Shown here: positions 57,501-63,500 of the stretch, piece after piece
Layout: each line of letters opens with the position of its first letter
Numbering within the stretch: position 1 is the first letter of the stretch
DNA from: Escherichia coli
GTDB lineage: Bacteria > Pseudomonadota > Gammaproteobacteria > Enterobacterales > Enterobacteriaceae
NCBI RefSeq assembly: GCF_044324785.1
Contig: NZ_CP172128.1
Strand: one strand, 5' to 3'
Length of the DNA stretch: 64,000 nt
Program-made: the position numbers

Positions 57501-60500
57501 GCCAGCCGGTTGGCAGCAGCTGGCGTATCCAGTCACTGACGGTGCGCTGACGTGCTTCACGTAAATAAACGACGGATGAGGGACCGGGCTTACCGGTCAT
57601 AACCAGTGCAGACAGCGGTGTGGCCTGAAGAAGCGGGCGGGGAGGCAGTGCGGTACTCTGGCTGCTGACAGTGGTTGAGGGTGTCGCCGTTGTTGTCGGA
57701 CGGGGCGGTGTCACAGGGCGGGTCACCGGTGGCGGAAGCAGACGTTTTTGCGTATGGGTGATAATGGCAGCACTTTCGCGAATTTGTCCGTCGACGAACA
57801 CCAGAGCCGGAGGCGTGGTATCCGGAACAGGCGTGGCATTAAATGCCGTACAGCCGCTGAGTAATGACGGCAGAAGGAGTGTCAGTGATTTCTTTTGCAT
57901 AGAATATAATCCGGTATATTACGGGTTACGGTATAAGACAGGTGGCGGTTAACTGGCCTTCAGATGAATATCATTTCATCGGGTTATTGATGATGAACCT
58001 TAAAAATCACAGAGGTGATGCATGATAAAGAAGATGTGGCGTTATTTACGGCAAATTGATAAGTATGAATTGCTGCAGCAGGTGATTTCAGTACATGAAG
58101 TGGAACTGCTCAGGAAAATGATGACAGATTCATTATTAGGGTGCTCAGTAGGATATGTGTTTTCGAAAATACTGAAGATATCCTTTCTGCGTTTTATTCA
58201 GTCTGAGGGGGGATGGGATATTATTACTTACTTTTTGTGGATGCTGGGAATACTTATTGTCATGGTCGCGCTGTTTATCTGGATGTGCGCCGCTGTATGC
58301 TATGAGCTTCGGATGTATAAAATAAAAACAGGAAGGGAGAACGATATATTATTCTGGGTGTGGATTCTTCTTTTTGATGTCGCGGTTGTATTTTCGCTGG
58401 GTAATGTTATCTGGTGATTATGGGTTCAGTGACATATGGAAAAAGATAAGTGCGAACATTGATACTGAAGAATAATATATCCAGGAATAGAAAAACATGA
58501 ATTTCGGAGATGGTTTCTTCTGTCTCCTGTTTTTCAGGGGAGTCTGTGGGTCAAATGTTATCAGCGTCATTAAAGGATACCCTTTCATAAGAATAAAAAT
58601 ATAGACGCATAAATGAGCGTAAAGAGGTAACCTGTCCTGCCAGAACAGAATCATCATGATGACGGCAAGATGAAATGTCGTTACATTGATATAATAAAAC
58701 CAGCTGTATTTACGCAGATACTGTTGGATATTCACGCTGTCAGCATGCGGTTCTGGTGAACAATTTATGCAAAAACAGAAGAAAGAAATGATGATGAACA
58801 CGGTCAGAGTGACCGGTAATACAGTCACAAGCAGAAAGAGTATGGACATAAAAATATCTCCGTCAGGATAGTGTGATTATTCCTTTATGGTTCCATAACC
58901 CGGCGTAGCTCCGTCGACTGGTTATAATTTTATCCGGGACCTGGCTTTAAGGGGTAATGCCACCTCTTTCCATTCACTACAGCTTCCGGGAATACGTTCT
59001 GTGCGTCGTATTATTCGTGTGTTCTGGCATACAATAATCAGGGCATTGTCTGCCGTCTGAAAAGGCATAATCGCAATGTTAATATCTTCTGTTGCCGGGA
59101 TACAGATGACTTTCTTTTCACATGTGTTGGTGTATACAACAACTCTGAATTTTTCTGCGGACATTTTCAATCCTCTTTTAAGCCAGAATATCCCGTGAGG
59201 GCATTCTTTGTGAAAAAGATGCCGGAAAAATTCCGGCACGGGGATTAAACCTGTTGTGGTTCTGAGTTATCCGGAGTGGTTACCGGTTCGCTGACATCCG
59301 GAACCTTTTCCGGGGCAGGCATGACCAGTGGACGTGTCAGGGCTGTAAGTCCTTCACCGGATAAACCCACCTCTTTCAGCAGGGAGTCGATGAGCGGAGC
59401 CTGTGTACGGTAAGCCAGAGCGGCGGTTACTGCCTGTTCAGCGAGATTTCCGCCACTTATGTCGGTTGTTGCTGTTTTACCGCGGGTAACACCGCCATTC
59501 AGACCATCCACCTGAATGATTTTAATACCGTCAATGGATTTCATTGGTTCTGTGGACTTCTCTATGACGGCAGGTAATGCATCCAGCAGGGCAAGACGGA
59601 AGCGGAGGCTGGTCTGCTCATCCGAAAGCACGTTAATGGCATCGTTCAGTGCGCGCTGTGCTTCTGCTTCTGCCAGACCTTTCTGACGGGTGGCCTCCGC
59701 CAGTTCAATAATTGCTGCTGCCTGGAGTTCGGCTGCTTCTTTTTCAGCCTGTGCGCGAACCGTCAGTTCAACCGCTTTCGTTTCAGCTTCCTGAGCAGCA
59801 GCAATCAGGGCAACCTGTTTGGTACGGTCGGCCTCCGCAGTCTGGCGGGTGGTTTCCACATCCTGCTGGGCCTGTACGGCCTCAGCCAGTGCTTTACTTG
59901 CCCGGGCTTCTGCCTGTGACTGCTCTTCCGATTTTGCCGCCACGGCAATGGCTCTGGCCTGGCTGGCGATTTCGGTTGCCTGCTGTTGTTCAATTTCCCG
60001 TATGGCCACTTCCCGTTCGGCTTCGACCTGGCGGGTACGCACTATCTGCTGTCGTTCGATTTCGGCTTCCTCTATCTTACGTTCAGCCAGAATTCGCGCG
60101 GATTCTGCTTCACGACGTCGTTCAGCTTCAATAGCAGCAATACTGGCACTCTGCTCTGCCGTACGGGTTTTTACCCGTTGTTGTTGCTCCAGAGTCATGA
60201 AGGCTTCCTGCTGTTCAATCTCCAGACGTCGGGAGAGTGCATCCCGGTTTTTTTCCCTGATGGCCACTTCAACATCCTGCTCAACTTCGTTGCGTTCGCG
60301 GCGACGACGTTCTGTTTCCTGGGTCAGAAGGGTCAGGCCTTCAGCATCAAAGGCATTGTCAGGATTAAAATGTACCCGTGCAGTCTGGTTGAAACTTGTC
60401 AGCGACACACTTTCAAGCTCCAGACCGTTTTTGGATAAGTCTTCCGCAACGGTGTTCTGCACACCCTGAACAAAGTTCTCGCGGGCATCCTGTAAATCCT

Positions 60501-63500
60501 GCATGCTCATTCTGGCCGCCGTGGCCCGTAGGGCATCAACAAATTTATCCTCGACCAGACTACGCAGATCTTCAGGTGTGAGCGTGCGTTGTCCCAGCGT
60601 CTGGGCTGCAGTGGATATTCCTTCGGCTGATGGTTTTACCCGAAGAAAAAAGGCAACGGCAACATCAACACGCATGCGGTCGCGGGTTATGAGACTTTCA
60701 GCCGCTGCACGACTGACTTCCAGCTTCAGGGTGTTCATGTTGACGGGAATTGTTTCGTGAAAAATGGGCATAACAATTGCACCGCCACTCATTACCACTT
60801 TTTGGCCTCCCAGACCTGTGCGGACAAAGGCCTGCTCTGCCGATGCCCGGCGGTACAGGCGGGCAAATATCAGCCCGATAACGAACAGGGTGAGGACCAG
60901 CGCTATAACGGTAAACAACCATCCCGGAAGATTAAACATAGTGAGAACCTCTGTATATGTCGGGATTAAAGAACATCCGGCCAGGGATTCAGTTCGCCCA
61001 GCCAGCGGGAACCGGAAAGACGGCAGACAATAATCACTTTGTCTCCTCGTCTGAATTCTTTCCCGGCCTCCGGCTCCAGCAACAGGTAATGAACCTGCCC
61101 GAAGCGGTCTGTGAAGCGACCTTCACAGGGGGAACCCGCCACTGCGTGATAACCGGTGATGGTGGCCATACAGCCGATGAATGCCTCCTCGGTGAGCGCC
61201 GTTGTTTCATCACGGGGTAACCAGGGGGCAATCAGTCTGCCGGTGCGGTGTACGAGAGGACATGTCAGCAGCAGGCAAAGTGGTGTAAGGAGAATGTTCG
61301 GGGCAGGAGCCTGCAGCAGATGAATAATAAGACCCTGCAGGAGAATGCCGGATATACCAAAAAAACCTGCCAGCATACAGAGGACGATCAGCAGGGGGAT
61401 CCGTCCGATGTTCAGCCAGTCCAGCGCCTCTCCTGTCAGCCCCTCCGGTAAATCAGGTGTATCCATAGCTGAAGAGAGGGAGTGTCCGCAGAGCAGGGCG
61501 ATAAGTTCAGCGATACCAGTAAGCAGAACAAAAGTCAGGGCTGCCAGATAGGGTGCGTTATACGCGGTAAGTAACGCCAGTGTCATTTTTCCTCCTGTGG
61601 CAGGTCAGTCAAACAACATTATGGCGTGAAGCTTCCGCTTCTTTAATTGTCAGAAGAAGCATATCGTCAGTCATCAGAAGACAAGGGGATGTCTGCAGGA
61701 GGGGATGATAACAACAGAAGCCTCACGCCGGAATGCGCTTTATGACAACCGGAGAGGACGGATAATCAAAAATGGGACATCCACATCAGCAAACCGCGAT
61801 TTGCGAAAAAAAGTCAGCGGAGAGTGGCTGCCGTTGTGGCTGTCCCGGTATTTCAGTGTAACAGGTGATTGCTGTGATCTATGCCCCATTCGGCTTTCGG
61901 TAAACCTGAATGCCCCACATGAAGAATGCGTGACAGCATGTTTCTGCCGCTGCCGTTCAGGCTGCATTCGCGTCCGTGCGCGAGTATAAAACCTTCATCC
62001 CGGAATATATCTTCCACTTCTGAAGATTCGAGGGATGCCGGATGAATTAATGAAAATGCCACCGGTCTGAGCATTCTGCCCGTGGTGGAAAAGGTGTCTC
62101 TGGTACTGTTCAGCTGCAGGATATGACGTTTACCTGTTTGCGCACGGGAAAGTGTCTCACTCAGCAGCTGGTCGTTCCATGCGCACGTGCCAATATGCCA
62201 TCCCAGACTTCTGCACGCGGAAAGAGCCGAGCGGAAGCGGTACAGGTCGTATAATGCTGCGTTATTGCCACTTTCCAGCAGTGATTTCAGCGTATTTGCT
62301 ACCGGTATGTCCGTATTGGTGGCCAGCAGTTTTCGCAGAGTCGTAAACTCTTCTGCCATTCCTCTGAACTCGCGCATCTGACGGGCAGTGTCAAGCCAGT
62401 TCAGCAGGTAACGCCGGCGACGCCGTTCGTTGTTTATGTTGTCCGGGGCGGTGGAGAGTGCTTCGAGCATATTCTCCAGTAACAGAATGACAGGGTTTTC
62501 CTGGGATAGAATGGTCATAAAGGCGTCCTGAAAAAATGCCCGACAGCCGCTCTCCGTACACCCTCAGGTGTCACCGGTGCCGGGCATTGTGGAAACAGAA
62601 GGGAAAAAAATCCCGGCCATAAAGGCCGGGAAAAGTCGTCAAATTAAGACAGCAATTTTCATGTCAACGCTCCGTCATCAGATACCAGGTGCAGGAGCAG
62701 GGCGATCCTCGACTCCGGCAGAGGCTGTGCATCAAGCCGGAGGAGGTACTGGTAACGCGCTTTTGTCAGCCAGAGGGTGGAGGCAGCATCCAGCTCCTCC
62801 CTGGCTGCCGGATTGAGCGCAGGATCCGGGTACACTTTCATTAAAGACTGAACGATATCCTCCCTGACGGTTTTGATTTCACCGGCCATTTTCACGAAGC
62901 CCAGAAAGGCACTGTGACGGCGCAGGTGAGTGAAAGCGTGGCGTTCGGGGTCTGCTTTCAGGAAGAAGTAACCGGGAAACACGGCGTGTATATGACGACG
63001 GTAACCACAGACTTTATCCGTGCGGCGGACCTTTTTCAGTATCAGGGGTGTCCAGGGAAGGACGTGTTGTTCGGAAAGCCAGGAAAAGAGATGTTCGCGG
63101 TTTTTGCCGGCAGGGATGTACTGTGCCAGATACCAGTTGCGTTGATGTAATTCACTGATATTCAAAATCCGGAACGCTCCGCGAAAATCGATCCCCGCAG
63201 GGGGGCTTCGATGTTGTTGTGAACGGCGAATACATAAAGCATGTGTCGGAAACAGCGGCTGACCCACGTTCAGCCCGGCCTGCAGTTCTGACAGGCACAT
63301 GCACTGTGCACTCTTGTAAGCCTTGTGGACGGTTTCGAGGCGGGCGAAAACCGACAACTCCTGCAAACAGGATTAATGGCTGGCAAATATATTACATAAG
63401 GATGTATATGTGGCAAGAGCTAAGATAAGCAGTTGAATAGATCGTTATATTTGATAAATAAGCATATTATGCTGATTTGTGTGCAGTGTCTGGAGGATTA

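What the first reader, a model, noticed from the sequence alone, without database searches (positions are those of the whole stretch)
59245..61586. NfeD-flotillin (YqiJ/YqiK-like) pair embedded between the tra regulatory genes and the pil operon
A 206-aa NfeD-family membrane protein is followed by a 564-aa SPFH/flotillin-like protein with an extended coiled coil, the canonical two-gene operon. Its presence inside a conjugative transfer region suggests a role in organising membrane microdomains for pilus or T4SS assembly, or a stress or defence function.
Basis: partly seen in the sequence, partly recalled or inferred. Interest (0 to 1): 0.4.

Follow-up and report, generated by a model that had tools for sequence, protein, structure and literature searches.

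The report
Plasmid-borne flotillin–NfeD (yqiJK) gene pair
A conjugative resistance plasmid carries its own long-diverged copy of the bacterial flotillin gene pair yqiJ–yqiK between its transfer regulators and its pilus operon; the pair is real and under strong selection, but related plasmids conjugate without it and its function has never been tested.

Summary
On the minus strand, 60966-61586 encodes a 206-aa YqiJ-type protein (Pfam YqiJ_N + YqiJ_OB) and 59245-60939 a 564-aa flotillin (Band_7 + Flot). They lie 26 nt apart, as chromosomal yqiJ-yqiK do. An AF2 model of the small protein has a C-terminal barrel whose best PDB matches are NfeD domains, so "NfeD family" holds by fold. The Pfam NfeD model itself does not hit.

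The window is an IncK2/Z I-complex plasmid. The pair sits between traC and pilI. R64 has the unrelated traD there, and pESBL has nothing. About 250-270 of about 540 related PLSDB plasmids keep the pair. The rest, including the model plasmids pCT and pMS7163B, carry deletion remnants and are still typed conjugative (pMS7163B measured), so the pair is not required for surface conjugation.

It is not junk. It is 82%/55% identical to chromosomal YqiK/YqiJ with saturated synonymous sites. A deep metagenomic lineage has it in the same slot, with dN/dS of 0.05-0.12. No defence HMM hits.

Best reading: an old plasmid paralogue of yqiJK embedded in the traBC regulatory module, probably buffering inner-membrane stress from transfer-gene expression. 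That function is inferred, not shown. Modest interest.

The parts
60966..61586 (-). yqiJ-like gene: 206-aa inner-membrane NfeD2-type protein with three predicted TM helices (8-32, 65-91, 97-122) and a C-terminal OB-fold barrel (140-199)
59245..60939 (-). yqiK-like gene: 564-aa flotillin (SPFH2 type) with an N-terminal membrane anchor, an SPFH domain, a ~220-residue helical region and a C-terminal Flot domain
   Evidence: ORF. Pfam Band_7 E 1.3e-18 and Flot E 1.3e-38. 82% identity to chromosomal YqiK over 541 aa. Hydrophobic segment 1-30 and A/E/R/Q-rich 200-420. AF2 helix 199-416.
61587..61852 (-). 266-bp traC-yqiJ spacer, or leader of the pair: highly structured, single-copy, found only on plasmids, nearly invariant
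   Evidence: RNA fold z = -5.5. Inverted repeats. 445 places on E. coli plasmids, 0 on chromosomes, >=99% identity in 441 of 442 records. Absent from L007, where traC overlaps yqiJ. Retained in the pCT-type deletion and lost in the pPK8275-type. The only promoter-like match (61612-61585) overlaps the RBS and start codon.
59209..59239 (-). Terminator-like hairpin (9-bp stem, UUU loop, then CUUUUUC) starting 5 nt after the yqiK stop codon
   Evidence: Consensus scan. RNA fold -14.6 kcal/mol, z = -2.66, 0 of 200 shuffles as stable. Retained in the pCT-type deletion and removed in the pPK8275-type.
59187..59214 (-). Sigma-70 promoter-like match (TTCACA-16-GATATT, 9 of 12) between the hairpin and pilI; a possible pil promoter
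   Evidence: Consensus scan only. The sequence is invariant in the three aligned plasmids. Function not shown.
61853..62518 (-). traC (transfer-gene regulator), context gene upstream of the pair
   Evidence: Annotated traC in the identical plasmid. 38% identity to R64 TraC. traBC are required for conjugation in pMS7163B (log2FC -5.3/-5.4).
62659..63366 (-). traB, NusG/RfaH-like transcription factor, context gene. The mechanical ORF has a TTG start; PGAP annotates shorter forms.
   Evidence: Pfam NusG E 3.6e-5. Sub-threshold NCBIfam RfaH hits, E 5e-9. Annotation. A strong terminator-like hairpin at 62631-62611 separates it from traC.
58922..59164 (-). pilI, first gene of the type IVb thin-pilus operon, context gene downstream of the pair
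   Evidence: Pfam PilI E 7.8e-32. PGAP coordinates.

Best explanation
This is an old plasmid-borne paralogue of the enterobacterial yqiJ-yqiK operon, which encodes an NfeD2-type membrane protein and its SPFH2 flotillin partner. It became fixed in the traB-traC regulatory module of the IncB/O/K/Z ('cluster 2') I-complex plasmids. Shown: the identity of both proteins, their position, their long plasmid-borne history under strong purifying selection, and the fact that plasmids conjugate without them. Inferred: the pair is transcribed together with or just after traC. It is co-oriented, lacks a convincing promoter of its own, overlaps traC in a deep lineage, and has a terminator-like hairpin only after yqiK. 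Its products would therefore appear when the transfer regulon is switched on. By analogy with FloA-NfeD in S. aureus and with the link between flotillin/YqiJ operons and PspA systems, the flotillin would assemble on the cytoplasmic face of the inner membrane with its NfeD partner. There it would stabilise or confine newly inserted membrane proteins, buffering the envelope stress and fitness cost of the burst of more than 40 T4SS, type IVb pilus and secretin proteins. The chromosomal copy is too weakly expressed to cover this. On this reading it is an accessory, condition-dependent helper and not a core transfer gene.
For: Identity: Pfam domains, 82%/55% identity to YqiK/YqiJ, NfeD OB fold, and the same 26-nt gene spacing as on the chromosome. 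Old and selected: synonymous sites are saturated against the chromosomal genes. Window vs the deep metagenomic lineage L007 gives dS 0.58 (yqiJ) and 0.76 (yqiK), comparable to the flanking traC (0.80) and pilI (1.24), with dN/dS 0.12 and 0.046, lower than traC at 0.205. No closer chromosomal donor exists: the nearest YqiJ outside the plasmid clade is 63% identical, and YqiK homologues are 79-82%. GC of plasmid yqiJ is 0.556 against 0.425 for the chromosomal gene. Linkage to traBC: the order traB-traC-yqiJ-yqiK-pilI is the same in IncK2/Z, IncIgamma/K1 and IncB/O-typed plasmids. It is also the same in L007, whose pil operon is R64-type (PilN 95% to R64) while its TraC is cluster-2-type. In L007 traC overlaps yqiJ by 29 nt. 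Transcription signals: hairpin after yqiK, and no independent promoter match in the spacer. Literature: chromosomal YqiK-GFP is undetectable at native level (PMC10434171); FloA-NfeD stabilise unfolded membrane proteins (PMC11222466); flotillin + YqiJ/YuaF operons are associated with PspA neighbourhoods (PMC11237479); secretins as inducers of the Psp response is established knowledge recalled from memory. Accessory status: deletions in about half of relatives.
Against: No experiment addresses the plasmid copy. Co-transcription with traC and dependence on TraB/TraC are inferred from layout only. In this lineage a 266-bp structured spacer separates traC and yqiJ and could hold an unrecognised promoter or regulator. 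Repeated loss, including in the successful epidemic plasmid pCT, shows any benefit is small or conditional. In Agrobacterium, SPFH proteins were not needed for T4SS localisation or function (PMC8656257). E. coli yqiK and quadruple SPFH mutants have few phenotypes (PMC10434171, PMC2636767). Flotillin pairs are not a general feature of conjugative systems: other plasmid hits are under 60% identical and lie on alphaproteobacterial megaplasmids or chromids.
Confidence: 0.4

Rival explanations
1. Host-benefit cargo in a permissive slot. The traC-pilI interval is a variable accessory site, and the pair benefits the host cell for reasons unrelated to transfer, such as general membrane-stress tolerance or modulation of motility or biofilm.
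For: The slot holds different contents in different I-complex plasmids: traD in R64, nothing in pESBL, yqiJK or its remnants in cluster 2, and a TEM-1 transposon inserted next to the pair in p86. One paper proposes plasmid yqiK as a candidate for the reduced biofilm seen after acquiring blaCMY-2 plasmids (PMC7824781). A chromosomal yqiK mutant shows altered swimming (cited).
Against: The pair has stayed in exactly this position, co-oriented with traBC and with similar dS to its neighbours, across deep divergence and across two different pil operon types. That is not expected of free cargo. Nearly every E. coli host already has chromosomal yqiJK (5423 of 5426 genomes). The biofilm link is speculation by that paper's authors.
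Confidence: 0.3
2. Dedicated assembly scaffold. The flotillin organises a membrane microdomain that is needed for efficient assembly of the type IVb thin pilus or the I-type T4SS, and so raises transfer frequency, especially in liquid.
For: It lies immediately upstream of the pil operon. T4SS components are enriched in detergent-resistant membranes in Agrobacterium (PMC8656257). pMS7163B, which lacks the pair, mates very poorly in liquid, at about 2e-6. Liquid mating of a carrier has not been compared.
Against: Plasmids lacking the pair are typed conjugative, and pMS7163B transfers on surfaces. IncI1 plasmids make thin pili and mate in liquid without it (R64, pESBL). The pair accompanies both an R64-type and a cluster-2-type pil operon, whose PilN proteins are 39% identical, so it is not co-adapted to one pilus machine. 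Agrobacterium SPFH proteins are dispensable for T4SS function.
Confidence: 0.17
3. Defence or exclusion function, such as anti-phage, anti-plasmid or entry exclusion.
For: Accessory genes in variable plasmid slots are often defence genes, and patchy presence/absence is typical of them.
Against: No PADLOC model matches either protein. The proteins are close, full-length paralogues of housekeeping-type YqiJK with no added effector domain. The plasmid has a separate ExcA-type exclusion gene, as annotated in relatives.
Confidence: 0.05
4. A decaying relic with no current function.
For: There are frequent deletions, one IS2-interrupted copy (H16) and one fragmented copy (H52).
Against: dN/dS is 0.046-0.12 over dS 0.6-0.8. 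Reading frames are intact in about 250-270 plasmids from four genera. Strong RBSs are retained.
Confidence: 0.03

Closest known systems
Chromosomal E. coli yqiJ-yqiK operon (NfeD2 / SPFH2 flotillin; Hinderhofer et al. 2009, PMC2636767)
   Same: Same two-gene order and 26-nt spacing. Same Pfam architecture (YqiJ_N+YqiJ_OB; Band_7+Flot). 82% (YqiK) and 55% (YqiJ) amino-acid identity.
   Different: It sits on a conjugative plasmid inside the transfer region, downstream of traBC instead of next to glgS. The upstream region is unrelated (a structured 266-bp spacer). GC is higher (yqiJ 0.556 vs 0.425). Synonymous sites are saturated. The membrane anchors and C-terminal tail are strongly diverged (YqiK tail 24%, anchor 60%; YqiJ TM parts 42-53%).
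B. subtilis yuaF-floT and S. aureus nfeD-floA (Gram-positive flotillin-NfeD pairs)
   Different: Sequence similarity is very low (9-15% in the OB domain). The flotillin scores 81.5 bits against the NCBIfam FloT equivalog cut-off of 700, so it is not a FloT orthologue. No functional data exist for the plasmid pair.
R64 traABCD regulatory region (IncI1)
   Same: Homologous layout: traB (NusG-like) - traC - accessory gene(s) - pilI... in one orientation.
   Different: R64 has traD (188 aa, no Pfam domain, unrelated to YqiJ, E 1.9) instead of the flotillin pair. TraC is only 38% identical.
pCT (IncK1) and pMS7163B (IncB/O backbone) - the experimentally studied cluster-2 plasmids
   Same: Same backbone type and the same traC-spacer-...-pilI region.
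   Different: Both carry a 144-bp fusion ORF (yqiJ codons 1-13 joined to the last ~34 codons of yqiK) in place of the pair, giving a 490-bp traC-pilI distance. The TraDIS and mutational work therefore never assayed the intact genes.

Membership tests
SPFH / flotillin (SPFH2, YqiK type) | SPFH (Band_7) domain | tested here: met
   PF01145 E 1.3e-18, 68.1 bits vs cut-off 23.6, residues 35-183. 86% identical to the YqiK SPFH region. The AF2 model of this domain was low confidence, so the fold was not checked independently.
SPFH / flotillin (SPFH2, YqiK type) | C-terminal flotillin domain | tested here: met
   PF15975 E 1.3e-38, 132 bits vs cut-off 27, residues 402-526, full profile length.
SPFH / flotillin (SPFH2, YqiK type) | N-terminal membrane anchor and long helical (coiled-coil) region between the SPFH and Flot domains | tested here: met
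   Single hydrophobic segment at 1-30. Residues 200-420 are A/E/R/Q-rich with 0 Pro. AF2 helices at 6-38 and 199-416 with pLDDT about 60-90.
SPFH / flotillin (SPFH2, YqiK type) | Oligomeric ring or cage assembly, punctate inner-membrane foci, detergent-resistant-membrane association | not testable with these tools
   Needs microscopy, BN-PAGE or cryo-EM. No solved structure is detectable by sequence.
FloT equivalog (NCBIfam NF058507) | Score above the curated equivalog cut-off | tested here: not met
   81.5 bits vs cut-off 700. It is a YqiK-type flotillin, not a FloT orthologue.
NfeD family (short form, NfeD2 / YqiJ-YuaF type) | C-terminal NfeD-type OB-fold beta-barrel | tested here: met
NfeD family (short form, NfeD2 / YqiJ-YuaF type) | Match to the Pfam NfeD HMM (PF01957) | tested here: not met
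   No hit even at E<=10. Only YqiJ_N (PF21001) and YqiJ_OB (PF07290) match. Profile and sequence searches of the PDB also miss NfeD chains. Membership therefore holds at fold or superfamily level, not for the Pfam NfeD family itself.
NfeD family (short form, NfeD2 / YqiJ-YuaF type) | N-terminal multi-pass membrane region and a gene directly upstream of an SPFH gene | tested here: met
   Three helices at 8-32, 65-91 and 97-122. The gene ends 26 nt before yqiK.
Core I-complex transfer genes (tra/pil) | Conserved across I-complex plasmids and required for conjugation | tested here: not met
   Absent from R64 and pESBL. Deleted in pCT, pMS7163B and about half of cluster-2 plasmids that are typed conjugative. 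pMS7163B conjugates on surfaces. A requirement in liquid mating has not been tested by anyone.
Known anti-phage defence systems | Match to a defence-system protein model | tested here: not met
   No PADLOC-DB v2 hit for either protein at E<=0.01. The library dates from 2023.

The most novel reading that the evidence does not exclude
The plasmid yqiJK pair is a TraB/TraC-co-regulated membrane scaffold or holdase that the plasmid brings along to buffer or assist its own I-type T4SS and type IVb pilus (secretin) biogenesis. Effects would show in liquid mating, in transitory derepression after entry into a new host, or in plasmid cost. It would be the first flotillin functionally dedicated to a conjugation system, and the structured, invariant 266-bp leader would be its regulatory RNA.
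Probability: 0.2. Interest if true: 0.55.

Novelty: new member of a known kind. Interest (0 to 1): 0.3.

Why it matters
Bacterial flotillins, and E. coli YqiK in particular, still lack a clear physiological role. A paralogue that a plasmid has kept under strong purifying selection inside its transfer regulon gives a natural setting with a defined candidate client set (T4SS, type IVb pilus, secretin). Natural deletion variants are available for comparison. IncK/B/O/Z plasmids spread blaCMY-2 and blaCTX-M in poultry and humans, so an accessory gene that changes their cost or their transfer in liquid could matter for epidemiology. The practical point for the field is that both model plasmids of this group, pCT and pMS7163B, lack the pair, so existing genetic maps of I-complex conjugation say nothing about it.

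Tried and rejected
1. I looked for an RfaH-type ops element (GGCGGTAGNNTG) near the pair to link it to the NusG-like TraB. There was one 1-mismatch match, far away at 18844, and fewer matches than expected by chance. Rejected.

2. I tested whether R64 TraD is a diverged YqiJ. It is not (E 1.9, no Pfam domain).

3. Sequence and profile searches of the PDB with YqiJ-like and YqiK-like found nothing meaningful. Only fold comparison worked.

4. The AF2 model of the flotillin from a shallow alignment (78-100% identity) was poor (pLDDT 53, SPFH domain unfolded). I did not use it for fold search.

5. Rfam scan of 58800-63990 found no family in the pair or its spacer, only the replicon control RNAs at the window end.

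6. I considered whether the structured spacer is a dispersed palindromic element (ERIC/MITE-like). Rejected: it is single-copy, found only on plasmids, with no chromosomal copies.

7. I hoped the pESBL Tn-seq and pMS7163B TraDIS studies had measured the pair directly. pESBL lacks it and pMS7163B has only the remnant.

8. I searched for expression data on IncK2 plasmids and found no relevant paper.

9. The only promoter-like match upstream of yqiJ (61612-61585) overlaps the RBS and start codon, so I discounted it.

10. Several fetched loci were not visible to the Python sandbox, so I mapped the deletions with the alignment tool instead.

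
Full report
**1. Observation**

A 206-aa ORF lies at 60966-61586 and a 564-aa ORF at 59245-60939, separated by 26 nt.

- The small protein matches Pfam YqiJ_N (E 1.1e-15) and YqiJ_OB (E 1.3e-14).
- The large protein matches Band_7/SPFH (E 1.3e-18) and Flot (E 1.3e-38). All four scores are well above the curated cut-offs.
- The large protein has one N-terminal hydrophobic anchor (residues 1-30). It also has an A/E/R/Q-rich, proline-free stretch at 200-420.
- AF2 models that stretch as a single helix at 199-416 with pLDDT about 60-90. The rest of that model is unreliable, with mean pLDDT 53.
- Upstream on the same strand are traB (NusG/RfaH-like) and traC. Downstream are pilI, pilL (TcpQ-like), pilM and the secretin pilN.

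**2. Is the small protein "NfeD family"?**

The Pfam NfeD model (PF01957) does not match, even at E<=10. Sequence and profile searches of the PDB also find no NfeD chain.

Foldseek agrees. This matches the published view that YqiJ is the NfeD2-type partner of the SPFH2 flotillin YqiK (PMC2636767). The label therefore holds at fold and superfamily level, not for the Pfam family in the strict sense.

**3. What the window is, and where the pair occurs**

The region is 100% identical to E. coli plasmid pLH10-b-1-A, typed IncK2/Z, MOBP, MPF_I. The window holds the whole co-oriented transfer region. At its right end is the I-complex replication-control pseudoknot.

Carriers of the intact pair include IncK2/Z, IncIgamma/K1 and IncB/O-typed plasmids. 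They come from E. coli, Shigella sonnei, Klebsiella pneumoniae and Salmonella, and the order is always traB-traC-yqiJ-yqiK-pilI. This corresponds to the IncB/O/K/Z "cluster 2" of I-complex plasmids described in PMC10286972.

R64 (IncI1) instead has traD in this slot. TraD is a 188-aa protein with no Pfam domain and no similarity to YqiJ (E 1.9). pESBL has neither traD nor the pair.

**4. Relationship to the chromosomal operon**

The plasmid proteins are 82% (YqiK) and 55% (YqiJ) identical to the K-12-type chromosomal proteins.

- DNA similarity is about 75% and is confined to yqiK. Nearly every E. coli genome (5423 of 5426) has the chromosomal copy as well.
- Synonymous sites between the plasmid and chromosomal copies are saturated. 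GC differs markedly for yqiJ, 0.556 against 0.425.
- No closer donor exists in the protein collection. Outside the plasmid clade, the best YqiJ match is 63% identical and sits in a chromosomal glgS-yqiJ-yqiK context.
- Chromosomal YqiK from Escherichia, Salmonella, Enterobacter and Phytobacter are all 79-82% identical.
- Divergence is concentrated in the membrane-embedded parts and the C-terminal tail. For YqiK the anchor is 60% identical and the tail 24%, against 86% for SPFH and 91% for Flot. For YqiJ the TM parts are 42-53% identical against 65% for the OB domain.

**5. The pair is old on plasmids and under selection**

A metagenomic contig (L007) carries a deep branch of the same module. 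Its order is traB-traC-yqiJ-yqiK-pilI-..., with YqiJ 87% and YqiK 94% identical to the window. It has no close relative in PLSDB; the best match is 83% DNA identity.

L007 is a mosaic. Its TraC is cluster-2-type (73% to the window, 38% to R64), while its PilN is 95% identical to R64 PilN and only 39% to the window's PilN. The pair therefore travels with the traBC module and not with a particular pilus operon.

Nei-Gojobori estimates for the window against L007:

| Gene | dS | dN/dS |
|---|---|---|
| yqiJ | 0.58 | 0.12 |
| yqiK | 0.76 | 0.046 |
| traC | 0.80 | 0.205 |
| pilI | 1.24 | 0.114 |

The pair has diverged in step with its neighbours and is constrained at least as strongly as they are.

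**6. The pair is nevertheless dispensable and often lost**

- In PLSDB, about 540 plasmids match the region and 252-269 of them hold the intact pair.
- In complete E. coli genomes, 227 of 5426 carry the intact pair on a plasmid.

Alignment shows two independent routes of loss.

- **Route a.** A single deletion runs from yqiJ codon ~13 to yqiK codon ~530, across a shared CAGCCCTGAC microhomology. It leaves a 144-bp fusion ORF and keeps both the upstream spacer and the downstream hairpin.
- **Route b.** Two deletions leave a 180-bp internal yqiK fragment and remove both the spacer and the hairpin.

Route b occurred in the window's own sublineage. It shares the window-type pilI-pilL interval and the remnant is 100% identical.

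One copy is interrupted by IS2 and one is fragmented.

Both experimentally dissected cluster-2 plasmids carry deletion (a).

- pCT has the diagnostic 490-bp traC-pilI spacing.
- pMS7163B has the 144-bp ORF _00160 at the same offsets.
- pMS7163B conjugates on surfaces, and its TraDIS list of required genes is traBC, the T4SS genes, nikAB and a few others.
- Insertions in the remnant, pilI and pilK gave log2FC of +2.6 to +3.2, but the authors did not accept these as repressors.

The intact pair has therefore never been assayed, and it cannot be required for surface conjugation.

**7. Transcription layout (inferred)**

- yqiJ has a strong RBS (AGGAGG).
- The only sigma-70-like match upstream of yqiJ overlaps that RBS and the start codon, so I discounted it.
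- In L007, traC overlaps yqiJ by 29 nt, which implies co-transcription there.
- In the window lineage a 266-bp spacer intervenes. It folds far better than shuffles (z = -5.5).
- The spacer is single-copy and found only on plasmids. It is >=99% identical in 441 of 442 E. coli records and matches no Rfam family. It may be a regulatory leader. Covariation cannot be tested because the copies are essentially identical.
- Five nucleotides after the yqiK stop there is a 9-bp GC-rich hairpin followed by CUUUUUC (z = -2.66).
- After that comes a promoter-like TTCACA-16-GATATT ahead of pilI.
- A stronger terminator-like hairpin separates traB from traC.
- With a NusG/RfaH-like TraB, read-through control is conceivable. 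No ops-like site was found.

**8. Mechanism**

What is known about this protein class:

- YqiK-type flotillins are inner-membrane, cytoplasm-facing scaffolds.
- Chromosomal YqiK is barely expressed, and its mutants have few phenotypes.
- S. aureus FloA-NfeD stabilises unfolded membrane proteins without ATP.
- Flotillin/YqiJ operons co-occur with PspA systems.
- Agrobacterium T4SS proteins sit in detergent-resistant membranes, but its SPFH proteins are not needed for T4SS function.

Putting this together with the layout, the best-supported reading is as follows. The plasmid expresses its own flotillin-NfeD pair along with the transfer regulators. The pair stabilises or confines membrane proteins and buffers envelope stress when the large transfer regulon, including a secretin, is switched on. 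This would be an accessory benefit that can be lost.

I put about 0.4 on this, 0.3 on transfer-unrelated host-benefit cargo in a permissive slot, and 0.17 on a dedicated assembly scaffold. I put 0.05 on defence or exclusion, where no PADLOC hit was found. I put 0.03 on a decaying relic, which the dN/dS values argue against.

**9. Novelty and score**

The genes are already annotated as "flotillin family protein" and "OB-fold-containing protein" in hundreds of records. One paper names plasmid yqiK as a speculative biofilm regulator (PMC7824781). Nothing here is a new kind of system. It is a plasmid-borne member of a known family in a consistent and so far unstudied context.

What this work adds:

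- The restriction of the pair to cluster-2 backbones.
- Its age and the selection acting on it.
- Its linkage to traBC rather than to pil.
- The repeated deletions, and the fact that both model plasmids lack it.
- The conserved structured spacer.

Interest is modest, at 0.3.

Noticed in passing
window 61587-61852 (minus strand): The 266-bp traC-yqiJ spacer folds far better than shuffled controls (MFE -96.7 vs -71.9 +/- 4.5 kcal/mol, z = -5.5). It is single-copy, found only on plasmids, >=99% identical in 441 of 442 E. coli records, and absent from the deep lineage L007. It survives the pCT-type deletion of the pair and matches no Rfam family. It may be a regulatory leader RNA.
   Followed up: partly
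window 58002-58940: The pilI-pilL interval is low-GC (about 0.38-0.42) and has no similarity to the pilK-type interval in other carriers of the pair. It holds two unannotated-type ORFs: 58022-58417 (+, 131 aa, weak sub-threshold FtsX-like hit) and 58418-58849 (-, 143 aa, hydrophobic). It looks like a replaced segment specific to this IncK2 sublineage, shared with pPK8275.
   Followed up: partly
window 62611-62631 (minus strand): A strong terminator-like hairpin (8-bp stem with 7 GC pairs, then a run of T) lies between the NusG/RfaH-like traB and traC. It hints at read-through or antitermination control within the regulatory module. No ops-like site was found nearby.
   Followed up: partly
window 63838-63988: Rfam finds PK-repZ (177 bits, + strand) and a sub-threshold CopA-like antisense RNA (- strand). 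This is the I-complex replication-control region at the right edge of the window.
   Followed up: no
L007 (ENA ERZ27268043 contig k141_149405), 1-10166: This is a mosaic I-complex backbone not represented in PLSDB. A cluster-2-type traBC-yqiJK-pilI module (TraC 73% to the window) is joined to an R64-type pil operon (PilN 95% to R64), and traC overlaps yqiJ by 29 nt.
   Followed up: partly
L012 (E. coli p86, NZ_CP023387.1) 4133-5746: A TEM-1 transposon is inserted immediately upstream of yqiJ, between it and traC. It truncates the spacer (only 78% of the spacer query matches), and the plasmid is still typed conjugative.
   Followed up: no
pMS7163B (CP026855) 13620-14537, from PMC10286972 Table A: TraDIS insertions in the yqiJ'-'yqiK fusion remnant (_00160), pilI and pilK all increase surface conjugation (log2FC +2.58, +2.95, +3.20). 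The authors did not accept these as repressors. This could reflect relief of costly pil expression or disruption of a regulatory element.
   Followed up: no
proteins P0058-P0077 (plasmid YqiK clade): Plasmid YqiK copies that are 95-99% identical vary in length from 534 to 582 aa. This suggests in-frame indels in the repetitive helical region or the tail.
   Followed up: no
protein P0052: A 125-aa protein annotated 'truncated inner membrane protein YqiJ' from E. coli O104:H4 str. 01-09591 is 98% identical to the plasmid-type YqiJ N-terminus. The strain's IncI1 plasmid pESBL lacks the pair, so the location of this fragment is unexplained.
   Followed up: no
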